From a virus (taxonomy: Duplodnaviria; Heunggongvirae; Uroviricota; Caudoviricetes), in the IMG/VR virus record IMGVR_UViG_2529292834_000005, positions 1 through 27,540 of that record: a DNA stretch of 27,540 bases. One strand, 5' to 3'. A program made the position numbers and the translations under genes. The notes under the pieces were generated by a model. It was not told the origin of the DNA. It made no database searches and saw only the letters and a program-made list of their open reading frames with translations. Numbering within the stretch: position 1 is the stretch's first letter; each line of letters opens with the position of its first letter. Positions 772-27,540 of this stretch are shown piece by piece.

Positions 772-772
772 T

Positions 773-1213
773 ATGAATCGTTTTGTATTCAGCCCATCAG
801 AGTCCCGTTTTTATGCCATCGAATGGCGTGCTGATTATGTCGATAATAATTGCTGGCCGCATGATGCCATTAACGTTAGTGACAGCACTTATTATGAGTT
901 TTCCGGCACTCCACCTACAGGTAAGCAACTTATAACTTTAAATAATATGCCATCATGGGGTGATATTCCCCCGCCTACACGAGAAGAATTAATTGCCGCT
1001 GCTGATATGGAGAAACAAAAAAGAATAGATTTAGCCAATGATTACATGAACGTTAAGCAGTGGCCCGGTAAGGCAGCGATTGGCAGGCTGAAAGGAGAAG
1101 GGCTAACTCAATACAATCTGTGGCTGGATTATCTGGATGCACTGGAAGCGGTAGACACCTCCAGTGCTACGGATATCGAATGGCCTACGCCTCCGGGGGA
1201 ACAGGCCAGTTAA
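773..1213 (+). CDS. Tail fiber assembly protein, alternative copy
   Basis: 146 aa starting 2 bp after the alternative fiber cassette; shares PPxTREELIAAA and C-terminal WPxPP motifs with the minus-strand assembly protein; P2 G / Mu U family by recollection. Confidence 0.8.
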   Translation: MNRFVFSPSESRFYAIEWRADYVDNNCWPHDAINVSDSTYYEFSGTPPTGKQLITLNNMPSWGDIPPPTREELIAAADMEKQKRIDLANDYMNVKQWPGKAAIGRLKGEGLTQYNLWLDYLDALEAVDTSSATDIEWPTPPGEQAS

Positions 1214-1607
1214 CATGCTCAGGGTCGGTTGTCACATCAGCCGACTTAACTCCATTTTTATAGGCCAGCCACGCCGACAGCTTAGCTCTGTTGGCGTCGC
1301 TGATTTCACCGAGCATCAGTTCTGTTCGCCAGTCCAGCATAACAGCGTCAGCATGGGCCAGTAGTTTCTGGCGTTCTTGTTCGGCAGCAGCAATCAACTC
1401 TTCACGTGTCGCCGGTGGAATATCAATCCAGACTGGCATATTTTGGCTGGAACTTAGCTGTTTGCCTTCAGGCGGTGCAAAGTTATATTCATTTCTGACG
1501 CTATCAGAAACCTCTATAACATCAGATGGTAATGAACCATTGGTAAGGTATTCTTCTTTCATCTCGATGGGGTAAAAACCCAATGTGCTTGGCGAAAATA
1601 AATACAT
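1185..1607 (-). CDS. G: Tail fiber assembly protein (P2 gpG-like)
   Basis: 140 aa directly downstream of H on the minus strand; paralog of 773-1213; 3' ends of the two converge and overlap by 29 bp. Confidence 0.85.
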   Translation of the reverse strand: MYLFSPSTLGFYPIEMKEEYLTNGSLPSDVIEVSDSVRNEYNFAPPEGKQLSSSQNMPVWIDIPPATREELIAAAEQERQKLLAHADAVMLDWRTELMLGEISDANRAKLSAWLAYKNGVKSADVTTDPEHVNWPVPPEA

Positions 1608-1609
1608 GG

Positions 1610-3001
1610 TTATTTTCCTATGGCAATAAAATATGAAGAATTCATTCCACCCATATTGTATTTAGCAAAAAATCGGGTCAGGTCATTTACGTCACGTTGT
1701 ATCGATGGAAATTGTAGTGATGGTGATGCAGTTGTGGACATTAAAACGCCTGGCACAATAGCAATAACGCTACTCGGAAATGGTATAGGGAAATTGATAT
1801 ATAGCCCGTTAGAATCAAAAGATGCCTCGAAAGCCTGAATAACATATCCACTCGGCAACTTAAACCACCCGCCACCAGACTGAAAACTACTCATATCAGG
1901 GATTTGGCTTGCACCTGAGCCAACATCCCGTTTCGCCGCTTCTCCCAATTGAAGGTATTGTAGAAGGGCCGAAACACTTTTCCCGCTTAGATTCGTCAGC
2001 GTGGCATCAAGTGGCTGTTTACCCGCCAGCGCGTTCATCACTGTTGTCGCAAAGTTAGGATCATTCCCCAGCGCAGCCGCCAGTTCATTCAGTGTGTCCA
2101 GCGCCTCCGGCGACGAACCAACCAGCCCCGCAACAGCAGATTTCACAAACGCGGTAGTGGCAATCTGCGTATTATTCGTTGACTGAACAGCAGTGGGAGC
2201 CGTTGGCGTTCCGGTCAGGGCCGGACTTGCCAGCGGTGCTTTCAGTGCCAGCGCATTGTTAATGGTGGTACTGAAATTCGGATCATTATTGATAGCTGCT
2301 GCAATTTCTTTCAGCGTATCCAGCGTTGCCGGTGCACCACCAATCAGGGCAAGAATAGCAGCCTGTACAAAGGCGGTGCTGGCAATCAGGGTGCTGTTGT
2401 TTCCTGCCGGAGGTGTTGGCGTTTTAGGCATGCCTGTCAGAGTCGGACTGTCTTTTGGTGCATACTGCGAATGAGGATCAACAGCAGCAAGGTGCTTTGC
2501 CATCAGGTCATCCACATACACCTTAAGCTCCAGCACCTTGTCATCCACATATTTGCGGGTTGCCAGAACCACTGCAGGGTCAATTTTCAGGGTGATGTTA
2601 TCGGTGCTGCTGGTAATCAGTACCATACGCACGGTCTGCGTGCGTCCGCTGCCCTCCGCCAGCTTCGGCTTGTAGCTCTCCGGGCAGTTTCCCACAGCAA
2701 TCAGCGCGCCGGTTTCATCAAACAGGCCGACTTCACGAATCCACCACCCACCCTCATTTTCCGGGATCACCTGCTCTGCAATAATCTGGCTGCTGTTCTG
2801 CGGGTCGATATACAGCATATTCAGCGCTGCGCGGCGCTCCTCAGCAACTAACGCGGTCTGTTGCGCGTTGGGTGTGGGCAGCACACCGCCACCGCTACCC
2901 ACCGCCATATGGGTAATTTTCAACGGTACACCGAGCGCGGTGGCGCTTGCCAGTTTCGCCGCGCCGATATCCGTCAGCAGGGTGTAAAATTTTGCGCTCA
3001 T
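1610..3001 (-). CDS. H: Tail fiber protein (P2 gpH-like)
   Basis: 463 aa; N-terminus MSAKFYTLLTDIGAAKLA...MAVGSGGG resembles P2 gpH from memory; residues about 197-350 are encoded by the inverted repeat; unique C-terminal domain. Confidence 0.9.
   Translation of the reverse strand: MSAKFYTLLTDIGAAKLASATALGVPLKITHMAVGSGGGVLPTPNAQQTALVAEERRAALNMLYIDPQNSSQIIAEQVIPENEGGWWIREVGLFDETGALIAVGNCPESYKPKLAEGSGRTQTVRMVLITSSTDNITLKIDPAVVLATRKYVDDKVLELKVYVDDLMAKHLAAVDPHSQYAPKDSPTLTGMPKTPTPPAGNNSTLIASTAFVQAAILALIGGAPATLDTLKEIAAAINNDPNFSTTINNALALKAPLASPALTGTPTAPTAVQSTNNTQIATTAFVKSAVAGLVGSSPEALDTLNELAAALGNDPNFATTVMNALAGKQPLDATLTNLSGKSVSALLQYLQLGEAAKRDVGSGASQIPDMSSFQSGGGWFKLPSGYVIQAFEASFDSNGLYINFPIPFPSSVIAIVPGVLMSTTASPSLQFPSIQRDVNDLTRFFAKYNMGGMNSSYFIAIGK
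1952..2413. repeat. Right copy of inverted repeat, lying inside tail-fiber gene H
   Basis: Reverse complement of 1-462; may extend beyond 2413 but the partner would lie left of the window start. Confidence 0.95.
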
Positions 3002-5489: not shown

Positions 5490-5541
5490 ATGAAGCATCA
5501 ATACTATTTGTTATTTTATTAAATTTAAAAGCACTAACAAC

Positions 5542-6336
5542 TTGAGTTATTTAAATATGATTTTATATAAATATGTGGATTCGAAAACAGCGGAAATAAT
5601 ACTGAACACTTCGACCTTGAAATTTTCAAAGGCATCGTCCCTAAATGATCCCTTCGAGCTAACGAGCTTGCATTACGATTCTGAATCCGAAGATGCAGAA
5701 CAAGCTATGAGGTTTGTTGCAGCCTCTATGTCCTACGGTATTCTTTCACTTACCCGTAACCCTTTAAACCCTCTGATGTGGGCACATTATGCTAGGGGCG
5801 AAAAATTAGAAGGAACAAGAGGTATTTCTCTCGACATAGGAAACGGCTCCCATGCAGGATTTGTTTTTGGAATTGATGCAGACGCAGCAGGGTTAAATGA
5901 AAATGGTTCTAATGTCATTCCTGCGAAGTTTGGAAGCGTCATTTATGCTTCAACAAAACCAAAATCGCCCTTCATAAACTCTACTAATTCATTTTTCTAT
6001 GAAGGCCTTCAACACATATATAACCCAGATATACTTGAGGCACTACAAAGAACATTCCTGTATAAACCAGCTTACTGGTCTTATGAGGAAGAAGTTAGAG
6101 TTGTAAGAAATGTACATAGACGTAAAACAGAAATCCAAGAGATAGAAAAATCAAGTATTAAGGAATTGTATTTAGGGTTTAGAAACTCATTTAATAAAAA
6201 TTATTTAATTCAAAAGCGTGATGAAATAAACGCTATACTGCCTCTTTGTAAGATTTATGTATGTGGCTTCGATCAGTCAGAGTGGACCTTTAACAAATTG
6301 CCTATTGATGAGGCTATCCGTCAATGCCTTGTTTGA
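5542..6336 (+). CDS. AT-rich accessory protein, 264 aa, possibly DUF2971-like
   Basis: Inserted between V and S on the opposite strand, 2 bp from the S stop; clearly lower GC than flanks; N-terminal LYKY...FSKASSLNDPFE recalls the DUF2971 signature, unverified. Confidence 0.75.
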   Translation: MSYLNMILYKYVDSKTAEIILNTSTLKFSKASSLNDPFELTSLHYDSESEDAEQAMRFVAASMSYGILSLTRNPLNPLMWAHYARGEKLEGTRGISLDIGNGSHAGFVFGIDADAAGLNENGSNVIPAKFGSVIYASTKPKSPFINSTNSFFYEGLQHIYNPDILEALQRTFLYKPAYWSYEEEVRVVRNVHRRKTEIQEIEKSSIKELYLGFRNSFNKNYLIQKRDEINAILPLCKIYVCGFDQSEWTFNKLPIDEAIRQCLV

Positions 6337-6338
6337 AG

Positions 6339-6788
6339 CTATGACTCCGATAACCAGTGCAATAGCGTTTCGCGGGTAATGGTTTCCACCTCATCATTCA
6401 CGCCCAGCAGGCGGCGCTCAGCATAGCGGACCTCCGGGCCTTTACGGCTGACGCGGTCACGCAGGCCGTAGTGGTGAACACGGGCAATACGCTGCACCTT
6501 GCCCTCAAACTGCACGCTGGCAGAGTCAGCACTGGCTGCAGTTTTCAGGTATTTTGTTGTGCGAAGCTTTGCAAACATCTGGCGTTTGATGCGTCCCTTC
6601 TTGCTGCGGGCTGTCACCCGGCGCGGCTCATAGCCGCTGCCATCAGGATTACGCTGCAGCCTGATGTTTTGCTGCTGCGTCCGGCGCAGCTGTTGCGCCA
6701 GCTGTCGCATCATACGTTTGCGGGCTGCCGGTTCCAGATTCGCAAGCAGCGCCGTCAGCCAGTCATCCACCCTCTGCAGTTCATCCAC
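6339..6788 (-). CDS. S: Tail completion protein (P2 gpS-like)
   Basis: 149 aa; conserved block RIARVHHYGLRDRVSRKGPEVRYAERRLLG as in P2 gpS by recollection. Confidence 0.85.
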   Translation of the reverse strand: MDELQRVDDWLTALLANLEPAARKRMMRQLAQQLRRTQQQNIRLQRNPDGSGYEPRRVTARSKKGRIKRQMFAKLRTTKYLKTAASADSASVQFEGKVQRIARVHHYGLRDRVSRKGPEVRYAERRLLGVNDEVETITRETLLHWLSES

Positions 6789-12292: not shown

Positions 12293-14059
12293 ATGAACAC
12301 GACACTGACCCCCGCAGACCTCGATCCCCGTCGGCAGGCCATGCTGCTGTACTTTCAGGGATACCGCGTAGCCCGCATTGCTGAAATGCTGGGCGAAAAA
12401 GTTGCAACCGTTCACAGCTGGAAAAAACGCGACAAGTGGGGCGACTATGGGCCGCTGGATCAGATGCAGCTCACCACCGCCGCACGTTACTGCCAGCTCA
12501 TCATGAAGGAGCAGAAAGAAGGGAAAGACTTCAAGGAAATTGACCTGCTGGCGCGCCAGTCAGAGCGCCACGCCCGGATCGGCAAATTTAACGACGGCGG
12601 GAACGAAGCTGATTTAAACCCGAAAGTAGCCAACCGTAACAAAGGTCCGCGCAGGCAGCCGGAAAAGAACGTTTTCTCCGACGAACAGATCGAAAAGCTG
12701 GAAGAAGTCTTCCACGCCTCAATGTTCGACTATCAGCGTCACTGGTTTGAAGCAGGAAAAACAAACCGCATCCGTAATCTGCTCAAGTCGCGCCAGATTG
12801 GCGCCACGTTTTATTTTGCCCGTGAAGCATTGATTGACGCCCTGCTGACCGGACGCAACCAGATTTTCCTTTCTGCCAGTAAGGCACAGGCGCACGTATT
12901 TAAGCAGTACATCATCGACTTTGCCAAAGAAGTTGAGGTGGAGCTGAAAGGCGATCCTATGGTGCTACCTAATGGCGCAGCATTGTACTTTCTCGGCACC
13001 AACGCCCGTACGGCGCAGAGCTACCACGGCAACCTGTATCTGGATGAATATTTCTGGATACCGAAATTCCAGGAGCTGCGCAAAGTTGCCTCCGGTATGG
13101 CCATTCACAAGAAATGGCGACAAACCTACTTTTCCACGCCGTCCAGCCTGACCCATAGTGCCTATCCGTTCTGGTCCGGTGCGCTGTTTAACCGGGGCCG
13201 CGCCAAAGCGGACAAGGTGGATATTGACCTGACCCACAGCAATCTTGCGCGTGGCCTGCTCTGCCCTGACGGGCAGTACCGCCAGATCGTCACCGTGGAG
13301 GATGCAGTGCGCGGCGGCTGTAACCTGTTCGACCTCGACCAGTTGCGCATGGAGTACAGCCCGGACGAATACCAGAACCTGCTGATGTGCGAATTTATTG
13401 ACGATCTGGCGTCAGTATTCCCGCTCAGCGAACTGCAGGCGTGCATGGGGGACAGTTGGGAAATCTGGACCGATTTTCAGGCGCTGGCGCTGCGCCCGTT
13501 TGGCTGGCGCGAAGTCTGGATCGGATACGACCCGGCGAAAGGCACGCAGAACGGTGACAGCGCCGGGTGCGTGGTGGTGGCACCGCCAACCGTGCCGGGC
13601 GGCAAGTTCCGCATTCTGGAGCGACACCAGTGGCGCGGGATGGACTTCCGCGCCCAGGCTGACGCCATTAAAAAACTAACGCAGCAGTACAACGTGACCT
13701 ATATCGGCATCGACTCGACCGGCGTCGGTCACGGTGTCTACGAGAACGTGAAAGCGTTCTTTCCTGCCGTGCGGGAGTTTGTCTACAACCCCAACGTTAA
13801 AAACGCCCTGGTACTCAAGGCCTACGACATTATCAGCCACCGCCGTCTGGAGTTTGACGCCGGGCATACCGACATTGCGCAATCATTTATGGCAATCCGT
13901 CGCGCCACCACCGCCAGCGGCAACCGCCCGACCTATGAAGCCACCCGCAGCGAAGAAGCCAGCCACGCCGATCTGGCCTGGGCAACAATGCACGCACTAT
14001 TTAACGAACCGCTGCAGGGCGAATCCGCCAATACCAGCAATATTGTGGAGATTTTTTGA
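12293..14059 (+). CDS. P: Terminase large (ATPase) subunit (P2 gpP-like)
   Basis: 588 aa; divergent from O and followed by the portal gene with a 4-bp overlap, as in P2. Confidence 0.9.
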   Translation: MNTTLTPADLDPRRQAMLLYFQGYRVARIAEMLGEKVATVHSWKKRDKWGDYGPLDQMQLTTAARYCQLIMKEQKEGKDFKEIDLLARQSERHARIGKFNDGGNEADLNPKVANRNKGPRRQPEKNVFSDEQIEKLEEVFHASMFDYQRHWFEAGKTNRIRNLLKSRQIGATFYFAREALIDALLTGRNQIFLSASKAQAHVFKQYIIDFAKEVEVELKGDPMVLPNGAALYFLGTNARTAQSYHGNLYLDEYFWIPKFQELRKVASGMAIHKKWRQTYFSTPSSLTHSAYPFWSGALFNRGRAKADKVDIDLTHSNLARGLLCPDGQYRQIVTVEDAVRGGCNLFDLDQLRMEYSPDEYQNLLMCEFIDDLASVFPLSELQACMGDSWEIWTDFQALALRPFGWREVWIGYDPAKGTQNGDSAGCVVVAPPTVPGGKFRILERHQWRGMDFRAQADAIKKLTQQYNVTYIGIDSTGVGHGVYENVKAFFPAVREFVYNPNVKNALVLKAYDIISHRRLEFDAGHTDIAQSFMAIRRATTASGNRPTYEATRSEEASHADLAWATMHALFNEPLQGESANTSNIVEIF

Positions 14060-15099
14060 TGAGTGAATACGACGCTCTGAGCAACACCGCGCCAGTGCAG
14101 GAGGCCGAACAGCAGAAGAATACAACTCACGCCGAAGCGTTCAGCTTTGGCGATCCGATCCCGGTACTGGACCGCCGCGAACTGCTGGACTATGTGGAAT
14201 GCGTACAGATGGACAGATGGTATGAACCTCCGGTGAGTTTTGACGGACTGGCACGGACCTATCGTGCCGCCGTGCATCACAGCTCGCCGATTGCCGTCAA
14301 ACGTAACATCCTGACCAGCACCTTTATCCCACATCCGCTGCTGAGCCAGCAGGCGTTCAGCCGCTTTGTGCAGGACTATCTGGTGTTCGGTAACGCCTAT
14401 CTGGAGAAGCGCACCAACCGCCTTGGAGGTATTCTGTCGCTGGAACCGTCGCTGGCGAAATATACCCGCCGCGGCGTGGATCTTGATACTTACTGGTTTG
14501 TGCAGTACGGCATGACCACGCAGCCCTACGAATTCACTAAAGGCAGCATCTTTCACCTGATGGAGCCGGATTTAAACCAGGAGATTTACGGCTTGCCGGA
14601 ATATCTGTCAGCCATTCCCTCCGCCCTGCTAAACGAGTCCGCTACGCTGTTCCGCCGCAAGTATTACATCAACGGCAGCCACGCGGGCTTCATCATGTAC
14701 ATGACCGACGCCGCACAAAATCAGGAGGACGTGAACAACATCCGCCAGGCGATGAAAAGTGCCAAAGGGCCGGGTAACTTCCGCAACCTGTTTATGTACT
14801 CACCCAACGGGAAAAAGGACGGGATTCAGATCATCCCATTATCAGAGGTGGCGGCTAAAGATGAGTTTCTGAATATCAAGAACGTGAGCCGCGATGACAT
14901 GATGGCAGCACACCGCGTGCCGCCGCAGATGATGGGGATCATGCCCAACAATGTTGGCGGATTTGGGGATGTGGAAAAGGCCAGTTGCGTCTTTGTACGA
15001 AACGAGCTAATGCCATTGCAAAAGCGACTGCAGGAGCTAAACAATTGGTTGGACGAAGAAATAATTCGCTTCGAATCTTATAAATTAAACCTAAATTAA
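14056..15099 (+). CDS. Q: Portal protein (P2 gpQ-like)
   Basis: 347 aa; last gene before the cos region, as in P2. Confidence 0.9.
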   Translation: MMSEYDALSNTAPVQEAEQQKNTTHAEAFSFGDPIPVLDRRELLDYVECVQMDRWYEPPVSFDGLARTYRAAVHHSSPIAVKRNILTSTFIPHPLLSQQAFSRFVQDYLVFGNAYLEKRTNRLGGILSLEPSLAKYTRRGVDLDTYWFVQYGMTTQPYEFTKGSIFHLMEPDLNQEIYGLPEYLSAIPSALLNESATLFRRKYYINGSHAGFIMYMTDAAQNQEDVNNIRQAMKSAKGPGNFRNLFMYSPNGKKDGIQIIPLSEVAAKDEFLNIKNVSRDDMMAAHRVPPQMMGIMPNNVGGFGDVEKASCVFVRNELMPLQKRLQELNNWLDEEIIRFESYKLNLN

Positions 15100-15103
15100 G
15101 CTC

Positions 15104-15135
15104 AAAAAATGCCTGCTACCGCAGGCACTTTGTTT
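15104..15135. terminator. Bidirectional rho-independent terminator between convergent Q and the 97-aa gene
   Basis: Seen: 7-bp stem tgcctgc / gcaggca with loop tacc, A6 on one side and a T-rich run on the other. Confidence 0.7.
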
Positions 15136-15427
15136 ACTCTTTAACAAGTGTAGCCCACACAGAGTCTTCAACCTCTTCAACAACAATATTGATGTTGCAA
15201 ATAACATGGTCTTCACTCTCACGAGTATATCTGAATAGCCTTGTTTTTACTTTCCCACCAAACGACTCACGGCCTTCCTTATTGGTAATGTCGACATAAT
15301 CCCCCACATTCGGAAGCATCAGAAGCGTATTGTCTTCAGAAGAACATCCTACAATATCTCCATCGTCAAGAGGTCGCATGTCCCCTTTACACAGGTATTG
15401 AAAGTCATAGCTGTAGGTAGTTTTCAT
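15134..15427 (-). CDS. Hypothetical 97-aa cargo protein between cos and Q
   Basis: ORF only; acidic, no recognisable motif; no counterpart in the P2 map at this position. Confidence 0.55.
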   Translation of the reverse strand: MKTTYSYDFQYLCKGDMRPLDDGDIVGCSSEDNTLLMLPNVGDYVDITNKEGRESFGGKVKTRLFRYTRESEDHVICNINIVVEEVEDSVWATLVKE

Positions 15428-15599
15428 TATTTATCCTTTGAAGGTAACAGTGCTTACATATGTTGGTTCAGTGGCTTAACATGGAGTTAAGGCTCTGAAA
15501 TGAGCATCATTTGAATGTAACAATATATTGCAACATGGACTCGAAAACTTCAAATCAATCTTCCCGACAGAGAGGTGTATTACTTTTACTACCTGTTAC

Positions 15600-15630
15600 G
15601 CGCGCTCGTATCCCCGCCACGCCTGCCCGC
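15600..15630. other. Putative cos site (cohesive-end region)
   Basis: Minus-strand reading GGCGTGGCGGGGA matches the start of the P2/186 19-nt cohesive end as I recall it (P2 GGCGAGGCGGGGAAAGCAC); lies between Q and the A-side genes, as in P2. Confidence 0.5.
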
Positions 15631-15740
15631 TTTTTGTAGCGATTTTCATGCAGGTGCATGACATAAGCAAAAGCCCACCAGAACTGGCGGGCCTCAGCAA
15701 AAACGATCCTCAAACGATCATGCATATTCATGCGGCATAG

Positions 15741-16523
15741 TCATGCAGTGACTTTGGTCTGGTCAGGCGTAGAAAAATCTTCGAAAGATTTATAAGTTTC
15801 AGTATCAAATATTGAAATACTCTCAACCTGATCCATTGGGATTACATGCCTAAAATGATTTAAGTTCAGTGGAGTTGAGTCTGCTGTAATATTTTTGCTA
15901 AGGTAAAGTTCATAGTAACGATGCTGCTCATGGTATCTGAGCGTATCTTTATCACGATAACCACTAATGTATGGTATGAGAGCCAGATGCTGAGTTTCCT
16001 GATGCTCCATCCGAGGAGCAGCTACGTAACCAATGTAAACTTTTCTGGATTTTAGCGTAACAAAGATGAGCTTACCTTCATCTATAGCCTGAACTAACAG
16101 TGACTCAATTCCATCTTGAGCTGCCATCTCGCGATATGCAGATTGACGAATCTCTTCGTTTTCTATTGCTCTTCGCGCATTGTTACCTTGGTCATAAGCA
16201 ATAAACACCGCAAGCAGCATAGACAACACAAAGAACAATGGGTAAGACATTATCTTTACGTCTGTGAGCCATGAATAAAAGTCCACATGTAACTTAGGCC
16301 AAAAATAGCCAAAAACATTGATAACTGAGCTTATAACTAGCAAACTAACGAATGTAACAGCCATCAGAGTAAACCCCTGAATAGCAAACTTACAACCATG
16401 CATAGCTACATAAAAATAGGAATTCCAACCATTACTTCTTGCTTGCCTGATGCGGGACTGGTAATGATTTTCGGTGTACCAGAACCCGCAAACCAGGACG
16501 ACCATGATAACTAAGGGTCCCAT
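15741..16523 (-). CDS. Membrane protein, 260 aa, 3-4 N-terminal TM helices plus about 150-aa soluble domain; hotspot cargo
   Basis: Hydrophobic segments at about residues 3-17, 46-75 and 91-110; starts 3 bp after the 66-aa gene; occupies the slot of P2 tin/old next to cos. Confidence 0.75.
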   Translation of the reverse strand: MGPLVIMVVLVCGFWYTENHYQSRIRQARSNGWNSYFYVAMHGCKFAIQGFTLMAVTFVSLLVISSVINVFGYFWPKLHVDFYSWLTDVKIMSYPLFFVLSMLLAVFIAYDQGNNARRAIENEEIRQSAYREMAAQDGIESLLVQAIDEGKLIFVTLKSRKVYIGYVAAPRMEHQETQHLALIPYISGYRDKDTLRYHEQHRYYELYLSKNITADSTPLNLNHFRHVIPMDQVESISIFDTETYKSFEDFSTPDQTKVTA

Positions 16524-16526
16524 TCC

Positions 16527-16727
16527 TCATCCTTGTCGTTTTGCAGCCAATTCTTCCATTCTGGCACGCATTGATTCACGTACCTGCTTATTGTTCATGT
16601 TTAAGGTCGCCGCACCATTAGCATCTGTGATAATTTTACTATTATCAGACTGTTGCACATCCTGACGGATAACATCCTGCATAATCTTACCCGGTGCAGA
16701 GAGAACTTTGCGCAGAAGTTCAGACAT
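16527..16727 (-). CDS. Small hydrophilic protein, 66 aa, first gene of two-gene cargo cassette
   Basis: Start placed at ATG 16727 with strong RBS AAGGAGG; the ORF-track N-terminal extension is not supported by an RBS. Confidence 0.6.
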   Translation of the reverse strand: MSELLRKVLSAPGKIMQDVIRQDVQQSDNSKIITDANGAATLNMNNKQVRESMRARMEELAAKRQG

Positions 16728-16946
16728 ATTTTCCTCCTTATGCCTCAAACGCCACGGATTGTGGTGCATGGAGGCTGTCATCTTATAATTATAGGACAAC
16801 AAAAATACGAAACTATTCGAAGAGTGCTACGTATTAACCTATTTACATATCACCCTGCAACCAATTTATCCATAACTAACGCCTCGCACGGCTCGTTGCT
16901 CAACCTTGCGAACGGTAAAAACCAGTTTTATCGTCCGCAACGTTCC

Positions 16947-17180
16947 CTAATGTAACCAGCTGTCGTCCTCCCAGACCTGCTGCATGATTTCCATCACTCG
17001 CTTTTTGTCTTCATCCAGTTTTAACCCGCTCAGTTCAACACCATTGGCGCTGCCCTTACGGATACGAATTGCTGTTTTGGGATACAGAGGGCGCAAATTA
17101 CGGTAAAGCTCGGATTCAAGGGCTTCCAGTGTGACCTGGCTAATCTTCAGCTCTTTATCGATCATTATTTCAATGCGCAT
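16947..17180 (-). CDS. DinI-family protein
   Basis: 77 aa, MRIEIMIDKELK...VMEIMQQVWEDDSWLH resembles E. coli DinI from memory (MRIEVTIAK...ETWESADDW). Confidence 0.75.
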   Translation of the reverse strand: MRIEIMIDKELKISQVTLEALESELYRNLRPLYPKTAIRIRKGSANGVELSGLKLDEDKKRVMEIMQQVWEDDSWLH

Positions 17181-17191
17181 ACAGATTCCCT

Positions 17192-17380
17192 TTAACTGGT
17201 AACGTCCATTGACCGGCTGTATTCATGGCTGCGAATTTTCGCCATCAACTCGTCAGTCAGTTCAGACACCCACTGGATAGCCAGCCGCTTTTCTTCATCG
17301 CTGCACTCACTAGCCGCTACAAGCTTGATAAAAAAATCAATACGCTGGAGCTTCAATGACTCCAAAAGATAGTCCTGCAT
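17192..17380 (-). CDS. Small SOS-regulated protein, 62 aa, possible Tum-like antirepressor
   Basis: Start at ATG 17380 with RBS AGGAGG; LexA box about 50 bp upstream; in phage 186 the LexA-controlled tum gene sits at this end of the genome and is DinI-related (recollection). Confidence 0.5.
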   Translation of the reverse strand: MQDYLLESLKLQRIDFFIKLVAASECSDEEKRLAIQWVSELTDELMAKIRSHEYSRSMDVTS

Positions 17381-17427
17381 CTTCCCTCCTATCATTACAC
17401 GGATACACAACAACTGTATATATACCC

Positions 17428-17447
17428 ACTGTTTATATGAACAGTAT
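17428..17447. promoter_or_regulatory. LexA (SOS) box
   Basis: Seen: aCTGTttatatgaACAGta, a perfect CTGT-N8-ACAG with AT-rich spacer, in the promoter region of the 62-aa/DinI-like genes. Confidence 0.65.
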
Positions 17448-17538
17448 AATAGGAACAAAAAAATGTAAAACTGTTTTTTGTCAGTTAATTGGATACACTG
17501 ACACCAGTCAATAAAGCACGAAATGTTAAACAGCAGTC

Positions 17539-19989
17539 TTAGTACCACTGACGCCATTTGTCATCTTCCTGCAGCCGCTGGTTACGGTAAAAAATACGTA
17601 AACCGGCCCCGGATGGAATGCTGCCACCACGCAGAAGCAAATCAATCTCCGATGCACTACCTTCAAACCCTCTGGCAGTCAATTCCGCTTCAAGCTGCAG
17701 ACGCTGCTGCTCCGAAATACTCTGTTTGTAGGCTTTTTTCCGCTTCGGTTTTACCAGTCTCAACCTGGCTGTCAGCTCCCGGCGTTCCTTCTGGCCCATA
17801 TTGTATAGGTAATCCTGCAGTTCCTGCTCATTCATGGTTTTAATATCGGGCAGATCTCCCCCTGTATGGTTCAATTTTTCAACAGGGGGACAGTTATTGC
17901 CACGAGTCCAAGGGGCGCAAGCGCCCTGGTCGGCTGCCGCCTCCTGAATATCAACGGCCTTACGAACCTTTTTCCACTTCATCGCATGCGTGCAAATCTT
18001 GCCCTCTGCAATCGGGGACCAGATGCCATAGATACGGATACCGTGATCGCCGTAGGCGCTCGGTTCGTCGTTAAGCTCATAAGCAGTGCGGACAAGGTGA
18101 TGTTTGCGGGGAACCAGTACACCGCCCTGCTTCATGATGTAGGTGGCAAAGCAACCCGCATCTGCAGCCGCCAGTACCGCATCCAGACGTGGATTATCCA
18201 GTACAGGCGCACCCGCTTTGCGTTCGCCCTGTACTCTCGCCGCCTGACCAGCCAGCAAGCGCAGCTCGCGGTATGCCTGGCGCCCCGGAATACCAAAGAA
18301 ACGAAATTGCTGGACACGGTGCAGTGACGCCCAGGTGCTGACATGCTCGGCGCTGTCACGCAGTGATCTGCCGGTTTCTTTACTGATTTCTTTAGCCAGC
18401 CCGCGCCCGTCGATGTTCTTACTGATGTATTTGGCGATGTAGCTGGTCGGCGTGCCCTTGCGCGGGTTGATTAGCTCAGACTTGAAGCGCGGCCCGGTAT
18501 TGGTACCCAGCTCCTCGCGGTCTTCACGGATGGCAAACTTACGCAGCAGTGCGGTGATGGAACGGCGGTCTTTTTTGCGCATGAAGCACAGAAGATGCCA
18601 GTGCACGGTGCCGTCATGGTGCGGCTCTGCAACGCGAACGCCATACCAGCGCAGCCCGGCCTTGTGCATGGCCTTGCGGAAAGCGGCGAACGTATCAACC
18701 AGGTAGTCACTGCTCTGCCGGACAGTGGCACTGGTCCACTTCGGATTAGGTCTGCCGTTGTTGAGGGTTGCGTGGAAGCGTGACGGGCAGGTGATGGTAT
18801 AAAACACCGCGCAGTCTCCGCGCATTTCCGCGATCAGTTCCAGCCCTTTAACACAGGCCATCATTTCATTACGGCGGTGCGCCGGGTTGCTGTTGCTGGC
18901 GTTCACCACATCTTCCATGTCCAGCGTGTCACCGTCTTCGTTGACCAGCTCATGCGAGCGGAAGAACTCCAGCGATTTGCGGCGCTGCTCGCGTTTGTGG
19001 ATCACAGCTTCATAGCTGACATACGGGGACGCTTTCTTGTTGACCAGGCAGACGGCGCGCAGTTGCTCCTCCCGCCACTCACAGCGCATCTGCCACAATT
19101 TGCGATACCACCAGTCCGCACACAGCATGCGCGCCAGCGATGGTGGGATCAGTTCATAAGGCACTAGCTTGCGGCGACGCTTTTTGCGGCGCAACTTCTC
19201 AAAGGCAGGCGGGATGACCTCAAGGCGCATGGCTTCTGCAGCAACCCTTTCCCATGACTGGCGGATTTCTTCTGGTTTAACATCGTCACTGACAAACAGA
19301 TCACCGCAGGCCGCATCAAGACACATGCTCATATGTGCCGCAACCAGCGTGGACAGACGTTTGACCTGCTCCTGATTCATTTCAGGCAGTACCAGCAGCC
19401 CCTCCAGGCCGTCCTGGCTCGCCATGAACCGGAAAGACGCAGACACCTGGCTGTCACGCACGCGTTCCAGCCGCTCAAGACACGGTCTGATTGTTTCGCG
19501 CAGATAGCGGGAATAAGCTTTAGCCCTGCCCAGGCTATGGAAGTATTTAATTCGCTCCAGCAGAGGCTTGCTGATATGGGCAGGCATGGCGCTTACATCG
19601 GCAATAATCACCAAATCGGGATTAACGCGCTGCTGTTCGCGGGCCATTTTGGCATGGCTAATCAGCCGATCCTGCTCCATTTCACGCTGGACAGGATCGC
19701 GGGATTCATTGAAGAAATAACGTTCCCAAACCTTATCACTCAGCGCCTCACGGCGCAGATGCTCCCGCTCGTTATCCGCAGCGTACAGAGTGATGAGGTT
19801 TGAAAGCGCAGACTCCGGCGCAACTTCCGCCGGGTCCAGATACGGGTTAACCGCTTGTTTGGGCAAATTCCACGAATAAGGCCCGGCAACATTCTCAACG
19901 CTACCGGGATTTTCAGTTACAAACGTGGCTGCAAGACGGCCTGTACTGATTTCCGTCACTCGCAGACTCCCGCATAAACACTGCTGCAC
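17539..19989 (-). CDS. A: Replication initiation endonuclease (P2 gpA-like rolling-circle initiator)
   Basis: 816-aa ORF; contains [14 protein letters not shown] (active-site tyrosine motif type); true start may be internal, since the ORF overlaps the upstream gene by 34 bp. Confidence 0.85.
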
Positions 19990-20966: not shown

Positions 20967-21811
20967 ACGCGTACCTCAACGGTACGGTCTGGACCTCTGG
21001 CATAATCAACACCAACCCAGCCAACTGATTTTGTGGCGATAATTTCTGCTGCAGATTTACTTTCACCGGCTGCTACGCCCATGCTGCGTTTTGCAGTGAT
21101 ACGATGGCGGGTAAAGCTACGATAAAGCGAACGGGTCAGGGATGTGTCGCTGTTGGACACGATAACTGGATGACCTTCTAATGACCGGCGCTCAAGAATA
21201 GACGCCAGATGATACTGATCGTCATCTGTAAAACCGGCAGTGTGATAACCACTAAATGTGCCATCGTATGGTGGATCACAATAAACAACATCCCCCCCCC
21301 TCAGCAGTGCTAGTGTTTCGTCATAGCTGGCACAGATAAACGTTGCGCGTTGAGTCTTTTCAGCAAAAGCGCGTATTTCATTTTCAGGAAAATACGGATT
21401 TTTATAATTACCATAAGGAACATTAAAATGACCGCTCAAGTTGTAGCGGCACAGCCCACGATAACCATGGCGATTGAGATATAGGAAATATACTGCTTTC
21501 ATGAAATCAGTAATTTCAGAGGAATGATTAAACTCATGCCTAATGTTGTAATAAGCAACTTCTCTATTCGCTATCGCAAAAATACTTTTCGTGCGTGATA
21601 TGAAAGCCTCACAATCAAGGGCGATTTTTTTATAGAGATTGATAAGATCTGGATTAATATCCGCGACAAGATAATGAGGATAGTCTGTCGCCATCATCAC
21701 AGCACAGGAACCCGCGAAAGGTTCAACCAGCCGCGAGCCAGCAGGAAGGTGCTTAATCAATTCCGGCATGATAGCGGTTTTATTTCCCGCCCATTTCAGG
21801 ATAGTGGTCAT
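20963..21811 (-). CDS. dam: DNA adenine methyltransferase (Dam family)
   Basis: 282 aa; motif I region EPFAGSCAV and motif IV DPPY ([10 protein letters not shown]); contains a G9 homopolymer on the coding strand. Confidence 0.9.
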
Positions 21812-22104
21812 ATAGCTCCCCCTGAAATGACATAGGAGAGAGCCTCAAGCGGCGTTAATGAGCGAATAGAAAGAATTACCCATTGCCCTTCCACTGCCAC
21901 AACTTCATTAATCGGCAAAGTGTGGGTAATAACAGCGGCCCATTCCCGACCAGTATATGAACCGTGTTTCCATTCGCAGAGAGAAAGGACATCACCTACT
22001 TTGTAGCCGCGATCATCTTTGCGAAGCTCTGCCTTTTTGCTGCCAGCGACTACGGCATTAAAATACTTAGGTGCAATTTTTATCTGATGGATGCGCATAG
22101 TCAT
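21808..22104 (-). CDS. ASCH-like (DUF3850-type) small protein
   Basis: 98 aa; [34 protein letters not shown] resembles the DUF3850/ASCH pattern as recalled; overlaps dam start by 4 bp. Confidence 0.6.
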
Positions 22105-23926: not shown

Positions 23927-24042
23927 AGTGCAGTATCTCTTAGTTTTGTTTCGATTTATCTCGTTTTATAGGGTTGGGGTTTGTTTTTCAAACCTTGAAT
24001 GAATACTAAGATCACATTTTATATACGTCAAGAGTTTTGCTT
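23927..24042. promoter_or_regulatory. Lysis/lysogeny switch region (pR/pL-type promoters and operators)
   Basis: 116-bp AT-rich region between divergent apl and cI; individual operators and promoters not resolved by eye. Confidence 0.5.
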
Positions 24043-24675
24043 ATGAGATCCATCAAGGTAGGTAATGACAGCGGAGGGCGTGAAGCTATCAATAGGCTGA
24101 TTAAGGCTTATAACTTCAACTCTCGACAGCAGTTGTGTGACCATCTTTCCGTTTCAAAAAGCACTATGGCAAACAGATACTTAAGAGACAGTTTCCCAGC
24201 TGAATGGGTTATACAGTGCGCCCTTGAAACTGGGGTTTCACTGCTTTGGTTAACGACTGGGCAAGGGGATAAAAATGATAATAACGCGCAGGAAAATAGT
24301 TTTGGTTTTGTGAACCAGACCTACATCAAACCGTTATCCGAGGTTGTAGCGCCTGAAATTGATAAGGCCACATTAGATGGTGGCGCTTTAGTGGACCAAG
24401 GCAAAGTGATATTGGATAACAGTCTAATCCCCCACAACATGACAAACCCGTGGCTCATCCATACAGATGATGGCTCTTACCTCATTGACCGTAGCGGTAC
24501 TCCACCAGTAAATGGCGTATGGCTCGTTGATATTGATGGAATAAAAACGATAGCTAAACTTGCGCGCATCCCCGGCAATCGCTTAATTGTCCAGCAGGGT
24601 GAGTCATCTTTTGAGTGCAGCCTTGATGATATCGAGGTAGTAGGCCGTGCTATAAAAGTAATTAAGAGTCTGTGA
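24043..24675 (+). CDS. cI: CI immunity repressor (phage 186 CI type)
   Basis: Start at ATG 24043 (MRSIKVG...); ...CALETGVSLLWLTTGQG and C-terminal GVWLVDIDG...LARIPGNRL resemble 186 CI as recalled; no obvious RecA-autocleavage motif noted. Confidence 0.8.
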   Translation: MRSIKVGNDSGGREAINRLIKAYNFNSRQQLCDHLSVSKSTMANRYLRDSFPAEWVIQCALETGVSLLWLTTGQGDKNDNNAQENSFGFVNQTYIKPLSEVVAPEIDKATLDGGALVDQGKVILDNSLIPHNMTNPWLIHTDDGSYLIDRSGTPPVNGVWLVDIDGIKTIAKLARIPGNRLIVQQGESSFECSLDDIEVVGRAIKVIKSL

Positions 24676-24676
24676 T

Positions 24677-25696
24677 ATGACGATCAGAAAACAGCCGAAC
24701 GGAAAATGGTTGTGTGAGTGCTACCCGAACGGGCGCGACGGCAAACGCGTGCGCAAGCAATTTGCGACGAAAGGCGAGGCCATAGCATTCGAAAACTTCA
24801 CCATGGATGAAGTAAACAAAAAGCCATGGCTTGGTGAGAAGGAAGATCGGCGGCGCTTATCAGAAGTGATTGAGCAGTGGCATTCACTCTACGGACAGAC
24901 ACTTGCTGATCCCAAACGCCTGATGGCGAAACTTAACATTATTTGTAATGGCCTTGGAGACCCCATCGCCTCAGAGTTAACTGCTGGCGATTTTACAAAA
25001 TACCGGGAAGCTCGGCTAAAAGGTGAAGTAAAAAATGAAAATGGCGCTCTTATGTCGCCAGTTAAGCCCCGTACTGTAAACCTTGAACAACGCAACCTAT
25101 CATCAGTTTTTGGCACACTGAAGAAGCTAGGCCACTGGTCAGCACCAAACCCACTCGCCGGGCTACCAACATTCAAGATCGCAGAGGGTGAGTTGGCGTT
25201 CCTAGCACCGGAAGAAATTAAGCGCCTGCTGGATGCCTGCGCTGATTCCCAAAGCCCCAGCCTGCTGATGATTGCAAAAATATGCCTTGCCACCGGCGCG
25301 CGATGGAGTGAAGCCGAAAACCTGCAGGGCCACCAGTTATCAAAGTACCGGATCACCTATACCAAGACCAAAGGCAAAAAAAACCGCACAGTACCGATAT
25401 CCCAGAATCTGTATGACGAACTCCCTAAGAACAGAGGCAAGTTATTCACACCTTGTAGAAAATCCTTTGAACGAGCAGTAAAACGGGCTGGTATCGAGCT
25501 GCCTGATGGACAATGCACCCACGTGCTTCGTCATACGTTCGCCAGTTATTTTATGATGAATGGCGGAAACATACTTGTATTAAGAGATATTCTGGGCCAT
25601 GCCGATATAAAAATGACGATGATTTACGCTCACTTTGCCCCTAATCATCTTGAAGATGCGGTGACAAAAAACCCACTTACTATGTTGGAAATATAA
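24677..25696 (+). CDS. int: Tyrosine integrase (P2/186 type)
   Basis: 339 aa; C-terminal catalytic region HVLRHTFAS...LGHADIKMTMIYAHF (R...HxxR...Y pattern); follows cI in the same operon. Confidence 0.9.
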   Translation: MTIRKQPNGKWLCECYPNGRDGKRVRKQFATKGEAIAFENFTMDEVNKKPWLGEKEDRRRLSEVIEQWHSLYGQTLADPKRLMAKLNIICNGLGDPIASELTAGDFTKYREARLKGEVKNENGALMSPVKPRTVNLEQRNLSSVFGTLKKLGHWSAPNPLAGLPTFKIAEGELAFLAPEEIKRLLDACADSQSPSLLMIAKICLATGARWSEAENLQGHQLSKYRITYTKTKGKKNRTVPISQNLYDELPKNRGKLFTPCRKSFERAVKRAGIELPDGQCTHVLRHTFASYFMMNGGNILVLRDILGHADIKMTMIYAHFAPNHLEDAVTKNPLTMLEI

Positions 25697-25698
25697 AA

Positions 25699-26730
25699 AT
25701 GGAAAAAAGCATTTTTACTCTTATTTATTTTTCCCTTTTATTTTTGTGTCTATTTTCTTTTATTAAGTATCGACTTTACGAACTTAATCATAGAAGCTTA
25801 TTTCAACAACCACTATTCTGGGCTGCAATAGCGATACCCTTATTCACATGTCTTTATTTAGGCTCATTTGTCTGGATAAACAAATTAAACTCATTTAGCC
25901 TTACAAGCCACGGCTATCAGCGATTTCTCGACATATCAAAATTACCACTGCTAATTCTTGCATCTGCAGTACCTTTAGTCTCAATCGTTAATAACCTACA
26001 CCGGACCAAACAAACTGAAAAACAAATCTCAGAAGCAGAGAGAAAAAACAGAGTAGACTTATATTACAATCATATGAAGTTCCATCTTGATTTATATAAA
26101 AAGATTGAGTCAAAGAAAATCAGCAGTTACTATCCCATTGAAGAAACTCATAAAGAAGCTGTATATCAACATTTCATCAAACACCCGCAAGAACTTTACA
26201 GAAAAGCCTATCCCTTATCTTCACCAGATGACTCTCAATACTTAAACATCAGTGATAGTTTTATCATAGAACTGCATAAATGTTGGGTTGAAATCAATGG
26301 CAGACTGAAGCAACTATCAGAGAGCGATGTACAGCTAAATCCTGACCAAGAACTTTGTGCTTCAAAGATGAGAATTTTCTTTGGAATAATGAATATTTAT
26401 GAAAAGACTTGCAAGCATCTTTGTTTAGGGGGGTATCACACCCAAAAATCATTCATTTTGAATGATAAATTTGATAAGTATCAAATCTATTCGCCATTTT
26501 ATGACTTTGGAACTATGTACCAGTCTCTGCAGGCTCTGGAGGAAATTACATACGCCTTCCTAGATACATGTAGAAACGAAGAGGTAAATTTATATTTCCC
26601 GTTAGAAGACAAAATCCTCATCTATGGCGAAGGAATTCTTCAAGATTGGTTCAGGTATTCTCAGTTCTTGATTTCTACAGCTTATCAACCCTCCAGGATT
26701 GCGCGTCTACCAATGCCAGTACAAGTATAA
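25699..26730 (+). CDS. AT-rich membrane-anchored cargo protein, 343 aa (3 N-terminal TM helices plus about 245-aa soluble domain)
   Basis: Starts 2 bp after the int stop; hydrophobic segments at about 5-22, 39-59 and 80-97; markedly AT-rich; lies between int and the att core. Confidence 0.75.
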   Translation: MEKSIFTLIYFSLLFLCLFSFIKYRLYELNHRSLFQQPLFWAAIAIPLFTCLYLGSFVWINKLNSFSLTSHGYQRFLDISKLPLLILASAVPLVSIVNNLHRTKQTEKQISEAERKNRVDLYYNHMKFHLDLYKKIESKKISSYYPIEETHKEAVYQHFIKHPQELYRKAYPLSSPDDSQYLNISDSFIIELHKCWVEINGRLKQLSESDVQLNPDQELCASKMRIFFGIMNIYEKTCKHLCLGGYHTQKSFILNDKFDKYQIYSPFYDFGTMYQSLQALEEITYAFLDTCRNEEVNLYFPLEDKILIYGEGILQDWFRYSQFLISTAYQPSRIARLPMPVQV

Positions 26731-26847
26731 TTTATGGCGGCATTATGGCGGCAGAGCACTAAAAAAGCATAAAACGGACAAACACCAAATAACATTAACA
26801 TATTGTTTTTAAACATAACTTACTGTTTTTAATACAGTTAAAATGGT

Positions 26848-26892
26848 ATGTAGGAATTTCGGACGCGGGTTCAACTCCCGCCAGCTCCACCA
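26848..26892 (+). other. ssrA: Prophage att core: 3'-terminal 45 nt of tmRNA gene ssrA (partial copy ending in CCA)
   Basis: Seen: ATGTAGGAATTTCGGACGCGGGTTCAACTCCCGCCAGCTCCACCA, matching the E. coli ssrA 3' end as I recall it; upstream sequence is phage coding DNA, so only the 3' fragment is present. Confidence 0.75.
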
Positions 26893-26908
26893 AATATTGA
26901 TGTACTGA

Positions 26909-27540
<632 letters not shown>

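What the first reader, a model, noticed from the sequence alone, without database searches (positions are those of the whole stretch)
25699..26730. Membrane-anchored AT-rich cargo gene coupled to integrase next to the att core
A 343-aa protein with three N-terminal TM helices and a large soluble domain starts 2 bp after the integrase stop and fills the space between int and the ssrA-derived att core, where 186-type phages have little or nothing as far as I recall. Being in the cI-int operon it should be expressed in the lysogen, which is what is expected of lysogenic-conversion or superinfection-exclusion genes. It shares the N-terminal-TM plus soluble-domain layout with the hotspot protein at 15741-16523 but not its sequence.
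Basis: partly seen in the sequence, partly recalled or inferred. Interest (0 to 1): 0.7.

Follow-up and report, generated by a model that had tools for sequence, protein, structure and literature searches.

The report
Membrane protein in prophage defence slot
A real but uncharacterised inner-membrane protein gene sits directly behind the integrase of a 186/Fels-2-type prophage, in a slot that holds a known anti-phage gene in sister prophages, so it is most likely an untested phage-defence or exclusion gene.

Summary
Window 25699-26730 (+) is a 343-codon ORF that starts 2 nt after the integrase stop. It has 35% GC and three N-terminal hydrophobic helices, and it is under purifying selection (pN/pS about 0.16).

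It lies inside the prophage. The 186-type Int arm-site repeats (TGGCGGCA twice, 26735-26753) and the ssrA-derived core (26847-26892) come after it. In Fels-2 the same repeats follow the int stop directly.

The protein belongs to a large unnamed family: PHROG 17460, about 1,000 clusters at 50% identity, with no match in Pfam, NCBIfam or PADLOC and no fold relative. The family has a conserved membrane module followed by a polar helix (NNxHRTxQTxxQI...KNxxD....HxK). Its cytoplasmic helical domain is very variable: 20-25% identity between prophages whose integrases are 92-95% identical.

At least 69 of 80 IMG/VR relatives occupy the same cI-int-X position. In nine sampled E. coli sister prophages the slot holds this family (3), an anti-phage dCTP deaminase (5) or nothing (1). 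Other members lie in the classical P2 hotspot, or next to DRT5 and Gabija genes.

Best reading: a lysogen-expressed, single-gene membrane-anchored anti-phage protein of unknown mechanism. The function is inferred from context only. A HEPN RNase reading was tested and rejected for this protein.

The parts
24037..24675 (+). cI repressor gene, the first gene of the lysogeny operon
   Evidence: Pfam Phage_CI_repr 4.3e-32 and Phage_CI_C 1e-27. It ends 1 nt before int.
24677..25696 (+). 186/Fels-2-type tyrosine integrase
   Evidence: Pfam Int_N 3.2e-28 and Phage_integrase 2.4e-23. It is 92-95% identical to the integrases of six of the seven prophages compared that carry other alleles of the downstream gene (55% in the seventh).
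25699..26730 (+). Gene X: a 343-aa inner-membrane protein of PHROG 17460 (function unknown). This is the finding.
   Evidence: ORF. phrog_17460 E 1.2e-165. No Pfam, NCBIfam or PADLOC family. pN/pS about 0.16.
25699..25998 (+). N-terminal membrane module (residues 1-100): three TM helices, predicted N-terminus out and C-terminus in. TM2, TM3 and the short periplasmic helix between them are conserved (Q37, F40, P47, G55, W59, G72, F76, P83, L84, L87).
   Evidence: Hydropathy. Positive-inside count over 108 homologues: loop 1 has 2.75 K+R, loop 2 has 1.15, the stretch after TM3 has 4.1. Conservation.
25990..26103 (+). Juxtamembrane polar helix (residues 98-135), continuous with TM3. This is the most conserved block: NNLHRTKQTEKQI...KN..D....H.K. 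H101 and Q105 are invariant. R102, T103, T106, Q109, I110, K116, N117, D120, H125 and K127 are at least 92% conserved.
   Evidence: Alignments A1 and A2. AlphaFold2 models a single helix from residue 81 to 135.
26104..26727 (+). Hypervariable cytoplasmic domain (residues 136-343): a helical bundle with three beta-hairpins.
26734..26753 (+). Two direct repeats ATGGCGGCA. They are the reverse complement of the 186-type Int arm-site consensus tgccGCCActt and mark the start of the attP arm.
   Evidence: The consensus is from PMC3448106. The same tandem repeat occurs once per locus, right after the last gene before att, in 23 of the 24 loci that match the pattern (twice in phage MLG42). In Fels-2 it follows the int stop directly.
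26847..26892 (+). att core: the displaced 3' end of ssrA (tmRNA), ending in CCA
   Evidence: Rfam tmRNA partial match ends at 26892, E 3.6e-11. It matches the annotated Fels-2 attP core and the end of SopEPhi.
26929..26960 (+). Native ssrA intrinsic terminator. It is the first terminator-like site downstream of cI-int-X.
   Evidence: Terminator scan hit at 26942-26956 followed by a T-run. None lies between 24037 and 26730 on the + strand.
26978..27376 (+). Truncated P4-type integrase N-terminus (host-side context). It is the remnant of a second ssrA-targeting island.
   Evidence: Pfam Arm-DNA-bind_3 5.2e-19. Full-length copies sit at this position in related loci.

Best explanation
Gene X is a phage-borne accessory gene. 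It occupies a cargo slot between the integrase stop codon and the Int arm sites of attP in a 186/Fels-2-type prophage integrated at ssrA.

It is probably made at low level in the lysogen as the third cistron of the cI-int-X transcript, by translational coupling to int. The product is a 3-TM inner-membrane protein (N-terminus out, C-terminus in).

I propose that it is a single-gene anti-phage protein. The hypervariable cytoplasmic helical domain would recognise a component or consequence of an infecting phage. The conserved membrane module and its polar juxtamembrane helix would be the effector, for example by oligomerising and compromising the membrane (abortive infection).

Shown: gene reality, location inside attP, coupling geometry, family size, the pattern of conservation and variability, and the defence-type neighbourhoods.

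Inferred: lysogenic expression, topology, anti-phage role, and the split into sensor and effector.
For: (1) It is inside the phage. In Fels-2 the int stop is followed at once by 'tttatggcggcattttggcggcagggcactaa'. The window has X inserted exactly between the int stop and the same repeats, and SopEPhi has an unrelated orfY there. The repeats match the published 186-type arm-site consensus.

(2) The position is conserved. At least 69 of 80 IMG/VR relatives start within about 20 nt of the end of a 186-type int. Seven more differ only by my choice of start codon. Contig look-ups of six homologues and phage Kp4865-2 show the same arrangement.

(3) The slot holds defence genes. In nine sampled E. 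coli prophages with this int type it holds X-family genes (3), a gene that PGAP names 'anti-phage dCTP deaminase' (5) or nothing (1). In EC5502 the arm repeats and the ssrA core lie beyond the deaminase. A 2026 preprint lists int-att as a minor P2 defence hotspot.

(4) Family members outside this slot also sit among defence genes. In Providencia two tandem paralogues lie in the classical P2 hotspot, between ogr/portal and gpA. In Morganella the gene lies between a PDC-S64 candidate (1e-37) and DRT5 (3e-212), next to smpB. In Dickeya it lies near GajB (1e-146), which was seen in the second of two Dickeya loci (L033), and an SNF2 helicase.

(5) Cargo signature: GC is 0.25-0.36 against 0.41-0.49 for int. 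The C-domain is 20-25% identical and the N-module 36-64%, while Int is 92-95% identical in six of the seven compared loci (55% in the seventh). The gene is still under purifying selection.

(6) No terminator-like site lies between cI and the ssrA terminator. Spacers are 1-4 nt or the genes overlap. In the 186-like prophage BTP5, repressor and integrase were transcribed in all conditions.

(7) Family-wide positive-inside statistics place the variable domain in the cytoplasm. In known systems TM proteins are taken to be suicide effectors (PMC9122126).
Against: There is no experimental datum for any member of the family.

The window protein has no hit in PADLOC-DB v2, and only scattered weak single-member hits appear across 108 relatives. 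Nothing turned up in Pfam, NCBIfam, PDB or BFVD.

Guilt by association is weaker here because prophage ends also collect morons with other roles. SopEPhi orfY in the same slot has no known function.

The conserved polar helix could equally be an enzyme site or a docking site for a host protein. The deep divergence of the C-domain comes with pN/pS well below 1, so there is no direct sign of an arms race.

The family is rare in isolated phage genomes: 3 distinct records of 50,697.

Topology rests on charge counts, not on a dedicated predictor. Expression is inferred.
Confidence: 0.5

Rival explanations
1. Superinfection exclusion at the inner membrane. X would sit in the membrane of the lysogen and block genome entry of incoming phages, as P22 SieA, T4 Imm and HK97 gp15 do, without killing the cell.
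For: It is an inner-membrane protein in the lysogeny operon. TM2, TM3 and the short periplasm-facing helix between them are conserved (G72, F76, S80, K81, P83). Relatives occur in unrelated temperate elements, including a Vibrio filamentous phage, as expected of a generic exclusion device.
Against: The part that varies between alleles, and is therefore the likely specificity determinant, is predicted to be cytoplasmic. The periplasmic exposure is only about 17 residues. No similarity to any exclusion protein was detected in PHROGs, Pfam or BFVD.
Confidence: 0.2
2. X is a lysogeny or host-physiology factor rather than a defence gene. Examples would be a membrane-anchored modulator of a host membrane protease or of envelope functions, which tunes lysogenisation, prophage stability or host fitness (lysogenic conversion in the broad sense).
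For: Obligatory coupling to cI-int in most members would also suit a function needed when lysogeny is established. The invariant polar stripe next to the membrane could be a docking surface for a conserved host membrane protein. Other int-adjacent morons, such as SopEPhi orfY, have no known defence role.
Against: 186, Fels-2 and many relatives lack the gene, and in sister prophages it is replaced by a dCTP deaminase. So it is not part of the lysogeny machinery. Members also occur away from any cI-int operon, in the P2 hotspot and among DRT5 and Gabija genes. A hypervariable domain is not expected for binding a conserved host target.
Confidence: 0.15
3. X is a membrane-tethered HEPN ribonuclease toxin. 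The C-terminal helical bundle would be a HEPN domain that cleaves RNA on activation.
Confidence: 0.04
4. It is not a functional phage gene: a decaying remnant, host DNA captured at a chimeric boundary, or a spurious ORF.
For: The composition is AT-rich and atypical. One E. coli copy (EC96) is frameshifted and separated from int by an IS5.
Against: pN/pS is about 0.16 in both halves. There are about 1,000 homologous clusters and a confident structure model. The identical protein occurs on 10 contigs. The gene lies inside the arm sites and att core. It has no similarity to housekeeping proteins.
Confidence: 0.02

Closest known systems
Cargo of the int-attP interval of P2/186-like prophages (anti-phage dCTP deaminase in E. 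coli sister prophages; orfY of SopEPhi)
   Same: X is in exactly the same slot: after the int stop and before the 186-type arm repeats and the ssrA core. It is AT-rich and is swapped between otherwise near-identical prophages. The interval is listed as a minor P2 defence hotspot in bioRxiv 10.64898/2026.02.27.708500.
   Different: X is unrelated in sequence to both (hhalign probability 0.1% against orfY). X is on the int strand and translationally coupled to int, whereas the deaminase is on the opposite strand. X is a membrane protein with no recognisable enzyme domain.
Membrane effectors of abortive-infection systems (lambda RexB, CBASS/retron 2TM or SLATT-type effectors, the TM partner of Rst_Hydrolase-3TM)
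   Same: Small N-terminal TM bundle, prophage or hotspot location, and presumed action at the inner membrane. This is a resemblance of layout, based on my knowledge and on the statement in PMC9122126.
   Different: No sequence relationship: the window protein has no PADLOC hit, and only isolated weak hits to 2TM and KwaA models appear, one member each out of 108. X would combine sensor and effector in one chain and has no partner gene in this window.
Inner-membrane superinfection-exclusion proteins (P22 SieA, T4 Imm, HK97 gp15)
   Same: Lysogen- or early-expressed small membrane proteins of phages that protect against other phages (my knowledge).
   Different: No detectable homology in PHROGs, Pfam or BFVD. 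X carries a 245-residue cytoplasmic domain that is the variable part.
HEPN_RiboL-PSP (PF18735) and Abi-type HEPN RNases
   Different: The catalytic Rx4-6H motif is absent in the window protein and in about 90% of the family. Scores are below the curated thresholds.
PHROG 17460
   Same: Full-length match, E 1.2e-165, residues 1-338 of 343. This is the family as already clustered from phage genomes.
   Different: The PHROG has no annotation or function, so membership names the family but does not explain it.

Membership tests
PHROG 17460 (unannotated prophage protein family) | Significant full-length match to the family HMM | tested here: met
   E 1.2e-165, 552 bits, residues 1-338 against profile positions 1-338 of 343.
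Cargo of the int-attP slot of 186/Fels-2-type prophages | Located between the int stop and the Int arm-site repeats and att core, and variable between otherwise similar prophages | tested here: met
Anti-phage defence system (any) | Reduces infection by at least one phage when expressed | not testable with these tools
   Only context is available: dCTP deaminase in the same slot, and neighbours in the P2 hotspot or next to DRT5, GajB and PDC-S64.
Known or candidate defence families in PADLOC-DB v2.0.0 | Match to a system HMM | tested here: not met
   No hit for the window protein even at E up to 10. Among 108 relatives there were only single-member weak hits.
HEPN superfamily (PF18735 RiboL-PSP, Abi HEPN) | Rx4-6H catalytic motif at the start of the last core helix | tested here: not met
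   The window has 'SESDVQLNPD' at the aligned position. The motif is present in 11 of 108 relatives.
HEPN superfamily (PF18735 RiboL-PSP, Abi HEPN) | Pfam score above the gathering threshold | tested here: not met
   No hit for the window protein. The best relative scores 25.1 bits against a cut-off of 28.4.
HEPN superfamily (PF18735 RiboL-PSP, Abi HEPN) | Four-helix up-down HEPN fold | tested here: inconclusive
Superinfection-exclusion membrane proteins (SieA, Imm, gp15 type) | Blocks phage genome entry without cell death | not testable with these tools
   No homology was detected. The phenotype needs experiments.
Serotype-converting Gtr or O-acetyltransferase modules next to int-att | A polytopic (about 9-11 TM) transferase, usually with gtrA/gtrB partners (my knowledge of the family) | tested here: not met
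   X has only 3 TM segments, no partner gene and no transferase domain. Two of 108 relatives gave weak Acyl_transf_3 noise hits.
Operon member of cI-int (lysogenic transcript) | Co-transcription with cI-int in the lysogen | not testable with these tools
   Geometry supports it: spacers of 1 and 2 nt and no terminator-like site before the ssrA terminator. The only transcript data are from the analogous prophage BTP5.

The most novel reading that the evidence does not exclude
X would represent an unrecognised and very widespread family (about 1,000 clusters at 50% identity) of single-gene, membrane-anchored anti-phage proteins. A conserved 3-TM module with its 'HRTxQTxxQ' helix would act as effector, fused to a fast-swapping cytoplasmic sensor domain. 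This family would be the main occupant of a third defence slot (int-attP, inside the lysogeny operon) of 186-like prophages, and absent from current defence catalogues.
Probability: 0.45. Interest if true: 0.65.

Novelty: new variant of a known kind. Interest (0 to 1): 0.5.

Why it matters
If X protects lysogens, it adds a common, compact (about 1 kb) single-gene system to the defence repertoire of Enterobacterales prophages.

It would also show that the lysogeny operon itself, and not only the classical P2 hotspot, is used to express defence cargo at repressor-linked levels.

The natural series of alleles keeps the membrane module constant, varies the cytoplasmic domain and sits in near-identical prophage backbones. 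That is a ready-made resource for mapping how specificity is encoded.

The precise boundary (int stop, cargo, arm repeats) gives a simple rule for mining further cargo from thousands of 186-like prophages.

If X has no anti-phage activity, the conserved polar helix still marks an unknown membrane-proximal activity carried by many temperate phages.

Tried and rejected
- **Sequence-profile search of PDB.** It returned only designed helical proteins.
- **Pfam, NCBIfam and PADLOC on the protein and on 108 relatives.** No consistent family.
- **Relationship to SopEPhi orfY and to the window's hotspot protein at 15741-16523 (-).** None. I suspected from the sequence that orfY is a RES-domain protein, but Pfam did not support this, so I make no such claim.
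- **The conserved C-terminal tail 'GD(T/R)LA(A/T)EH' of many homologues.** It is not a protein motif. These ORFs read into the Int arm-site repeats (TGGCGGCAGAGCAC encodes ..AAEH).
- **CP019275.1, a circular 37-kb record, as possible proof of carriage in an excised phage.** Unusable: the record contains host genes and many frameshifts.
- **Literature searches.** They found no paper that describes this family.

Full report
**1. The observation**

Window 25699-26730 (+) is an ATG-initiated ORF of 343 codons. The upstream ORF at 24677-25696 is a tyrosine integrase (Int_N 3e-28, Phage_integrase 2e-23). The ORF before that, at 24037-24675, is a 186-type CI repressor. The spacers are 1 nt (cI to int) and 2 nt (int to X).

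X has GC 0.348 and GC3 0.334, against 0.479 for int and 0.511 for the window. Hydropathy shows three hydrophobic segments at residues 1-26, 39-61 and 76-100.

The 3' end of ssrA lies at 26847-26892. The Rfam tmRNA partial match ends at 26892, and the stretch is identical to the annotated Fels-2 attP core. The native ssrA terminator follows, and then a truncated P4-type integrase. The window is contig APXF01000152.1 of assembly GCA_000356225.2, and the identical protein occurs on 10 contigs.

**2. It is a real gene**

Against a 78%-identical allele (P0003, locus L036), pN is 0.12 and pS is 0.75. The N-terminal module gives 0.07/0.65 and the C-terminal domain 0.15/0.82. For comparison, int gives 0.043/0.557.

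A profile search of 1.84 billion cluster representatives finds 1,025 relatives at E <= 1e-3 and 200 at E <= 1e-30. AlphaFold2 gives confident models: pLDDT 87.6 for the full length, and 92.7 with pTM 0.88 for residues 100-343.

**3. It is inside the phage, in a defined cargo slot**

In Fels-2 the int stop codon is followed immediately by 'tttatggcggcattttggcggcagggcactaa...', and about 120 nt later by the att core. The window has the same sequence (26731 onward) immediately after the stop codon of X. SopEPhi has it immediately after an unrelated 403-aa orfY that overlaps int by 4 nt.

The tandem repeat TGGCGRYA-N-TGGCGGCA occurs in 24 of the 29 loci fetched by that point. In 23 of them it occurs exactly once, always just after the last gene before att. 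It is the reverse complement of the published 186-type Int arm-site consensus tgccGCCActt (PMC3448106).

So the slot is: int stop, then 0 to 2 cargo genes, then the arm repeats, then the core. Enterobacter hormaechei prophages carry two cargo genes there, X plus a 42%-identical homologue of SopEPhi orfY.

This layout also explains an oddity. Many homologues end in '...GDTLAAEH' because their reading frames run into the arm repeats.

**4. The family**

X matches PHROG 17460 (unknown function) at E 1e-165. It matches nothing in Pfam, NCBIfam or PADLOC. All named relatives are 'hypothetical protein', from Escherichia, Citrobacter, Enterobacter, Klebsiella, Salmonella, Kluyvera, Cronobacter, Serratia, Dickeya, Providencia, Proteus and Morganella.

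In a 108-sequence alignment the conserved part is the following:
- The cytoplasmic end of loop 1 and TM2: L34, Q37, F40, P47, G55, W59.
- A short helix between TM2 and TM3: G72, F76.
- TM3: P83, L84, L87.
- Above all, the helix that continues from TM3 into the cytoplasm: N99, H101 (invariant), R102, T103, Q105 (invariant), T106, Q109, I110, K116, N117, D120, H125, K127.

Most of these residues fall on one half of the helix (my helical-wheel arithmetic). Beyond residue 135 conservation collapses.

Charge counts over the family give 2.75 K+R in loop 1, 1.15 in loop 2 and 4.1 after TM3. N-tails are poor in K/R in 3-TM members and rich in them in 2-TM and 4-TM members. This places the variable domain in the cytoplasm. 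It is an inference, not a dedicated topology prediction.

**5. Variability against the backbone**

Seven prophages that carry other alleles were compared with the window. In six of them Int is 92-95% identical; in the seventh (L007) it is 55%. Across all seven, the X N-module is 36-64% identical and the X C-domain only 20-25%. X has GC 0.25-0.36 against 0.41-0.49 for int. X starts 1-4 nt after the int stop or overlaps it, by 4 nt (ATGA) in two loci and by 11 nt in Kp4865-2.

**6. Where the family lives**

An IMG/VR scan found 122 relatives. Of the 80 loci kept, 69 start within about 20 nt of the end of a 186-type int. Seven more are offset by about 135 nt, which comes only from my choice of the first ATG. 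Contig look-ups of six homologues and phage Kp4865-2 show the same cI-int-X order at several different chromosomal sites.

Outside this slot, the contexts are as follows:
- In Providencia rettgeri, two tandem paralogues (348 and 365 aa, both with NIHRTIQT) sit in the classical P2 hotspot, between ogr/portal and gpA.
- In Morganella, the gene lies beside smpB, between a PDC-S64 candidate (1e-37) and a DRT5 reverse transcriptase (3e-212).
- In Dickeya, it lies among a mad2-like methyltransferase and an SNF2 helicase; in the second of the two Dickeya loci (L033) a GajB gene (1e-146) is also nearby.
- A Vibrio filamentous phage carries a protein that shares only the membrane module.

The family is rare in isolated phage genomes and in plasmids.

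**7. What else occupies the slot**

This int type occurs in 143 of 5,426 complete E. coli genomes. Nine were inspected:
- Three carry an X-family gene: E7476 and KL53, verified by the HRT motif, the arm repeats and the ssrA core, and SMN152SH1.
- Five carry a gene that PGAP names 'anti-phage dCTP deaminase', on the opposite strand. In EC5502 the arm repeats and the ssrA core lie beyond the deaminase.
- One, XH992, has nothing in the slot.

dCTP deaminase is an established defence system. It is listed among the known systems in PMC10121019, and its mechanism is from my own knowledge. A 2026 preprint independently reports that 3% of the defence systems of P2-like phages lie between integrase and att.

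**8. Expression**

No terminator-like site lies on the + strand between cI and the ssrA terminator, and no better-than-chance promoter precedes X. The short spacers and a weak Shine-Dalgarno sequence (GGAA, about 11-14 nt upstream) point to translational coupling with int. In phage 186, cI-int is the lysogenic pL operon and is also driven by the CII-dependent pE; this is established knowledge of 186. In the 186-like prophage BTP5, repressor and integrase were transcribed at low level in all 22 conditions (bioRxiv 10.1101/787010). Expression of X itself has not been measured.

**9. Mechanism**

The anatomy suggests a sensor-effector protein that acts at the membrane. It has a conserved TM module, an invariant polar stripe next to the membrane, and an allele-specific cytoplasmic domain. 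It is a single gene, or occurs as tandem paralogues. I rate the anti-phage role at about 0.5-0.55 and the specific abortive-infection mechanism at about 0.3. Exclusion of genome entry (0.2) and a non-defence lysogeny or host-physiology role (0.15) remain open.

**10. Verdict**

What is new is the occupant: a large, unannotated membrane-protein family with a distinctive conserved motif and no known relatives. That makes it a good candidate for experimental testing. It is not a categorically new kind of system.

Noticed in passing
window 26978-27540: Directly after the ssrA remnant and terminator lies a truncated P4-type integrase N-terminus (Arm-DNA-bind_3, 5e-19), followed by an IS21 IstB fragment on the minus strand. 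Related loci have the full-length integrase here, so two elements use ssrA in tandem and the second one is decayed in this strain.
   Followed up: partly
window 15134-17557 (minus strand): The classical P2 hotspot, between portal (14056-15099) and gpA (17539-19989), holds four AT-rich ORFs of 97, 260, 91 and 121 aa. None hits PADLOC. The 260-aa protein starts with three hydrophobic segments but is unrelated to X (hhalign probability about 1%).
   Followed up: partly
L002 7191-8381; L023 3115-4326: A second cargo family of the same slot. SopEPhi orfY (403 aa) and a 396-aa Enterobacter protein are 42% identical. They have no Pfam or PADLOC match, and in Enterobacter the gene sits after X and before the arm repeats.
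   Followed up: partly
L030 3958-6098: Two tandem, overlapping paralogues of the X family (348 and 365 aa, 37% identical over the membrane module) lie in the P2 hotspot of a Providencia rettgeri prophage. This may mean hetero-oligomers or two specificities.
   Followed up: no
L007 3070-3999: In one 186-like prophage (GCA_965119465.1) an extra 309-aa gene is inserted between cI and int. It has an N-terminal hydrophobic region and a weak WYL-like C-terminus (E 0.004). This looks like another cargo position inside the lysogeny operon.
   Followed up: no
window 26817-26960: Rfam IsrM sRNA model matches at E 8.5e-14, but at 53.8 bits, far below the gathering score of 376. The match probably reflects shared ssrA-end or att-region sequence rather than an IsrM gene.
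   Followed up: no
L001 4903-7031 (E. coli EC96): The only complete-genome E. coli copy close to this allele (79% nt identity) is separated from int by an IS5-family (ISKpn26) insertion and split by a frameshift. It is an example of decay of the gene.
   Followed up: partly
window 501-2000, 5501-6500, 21001-22000: Further low-GC stretches (0.37-0.46) within the prophage could hold additional accessory genes.
   Followed up: no
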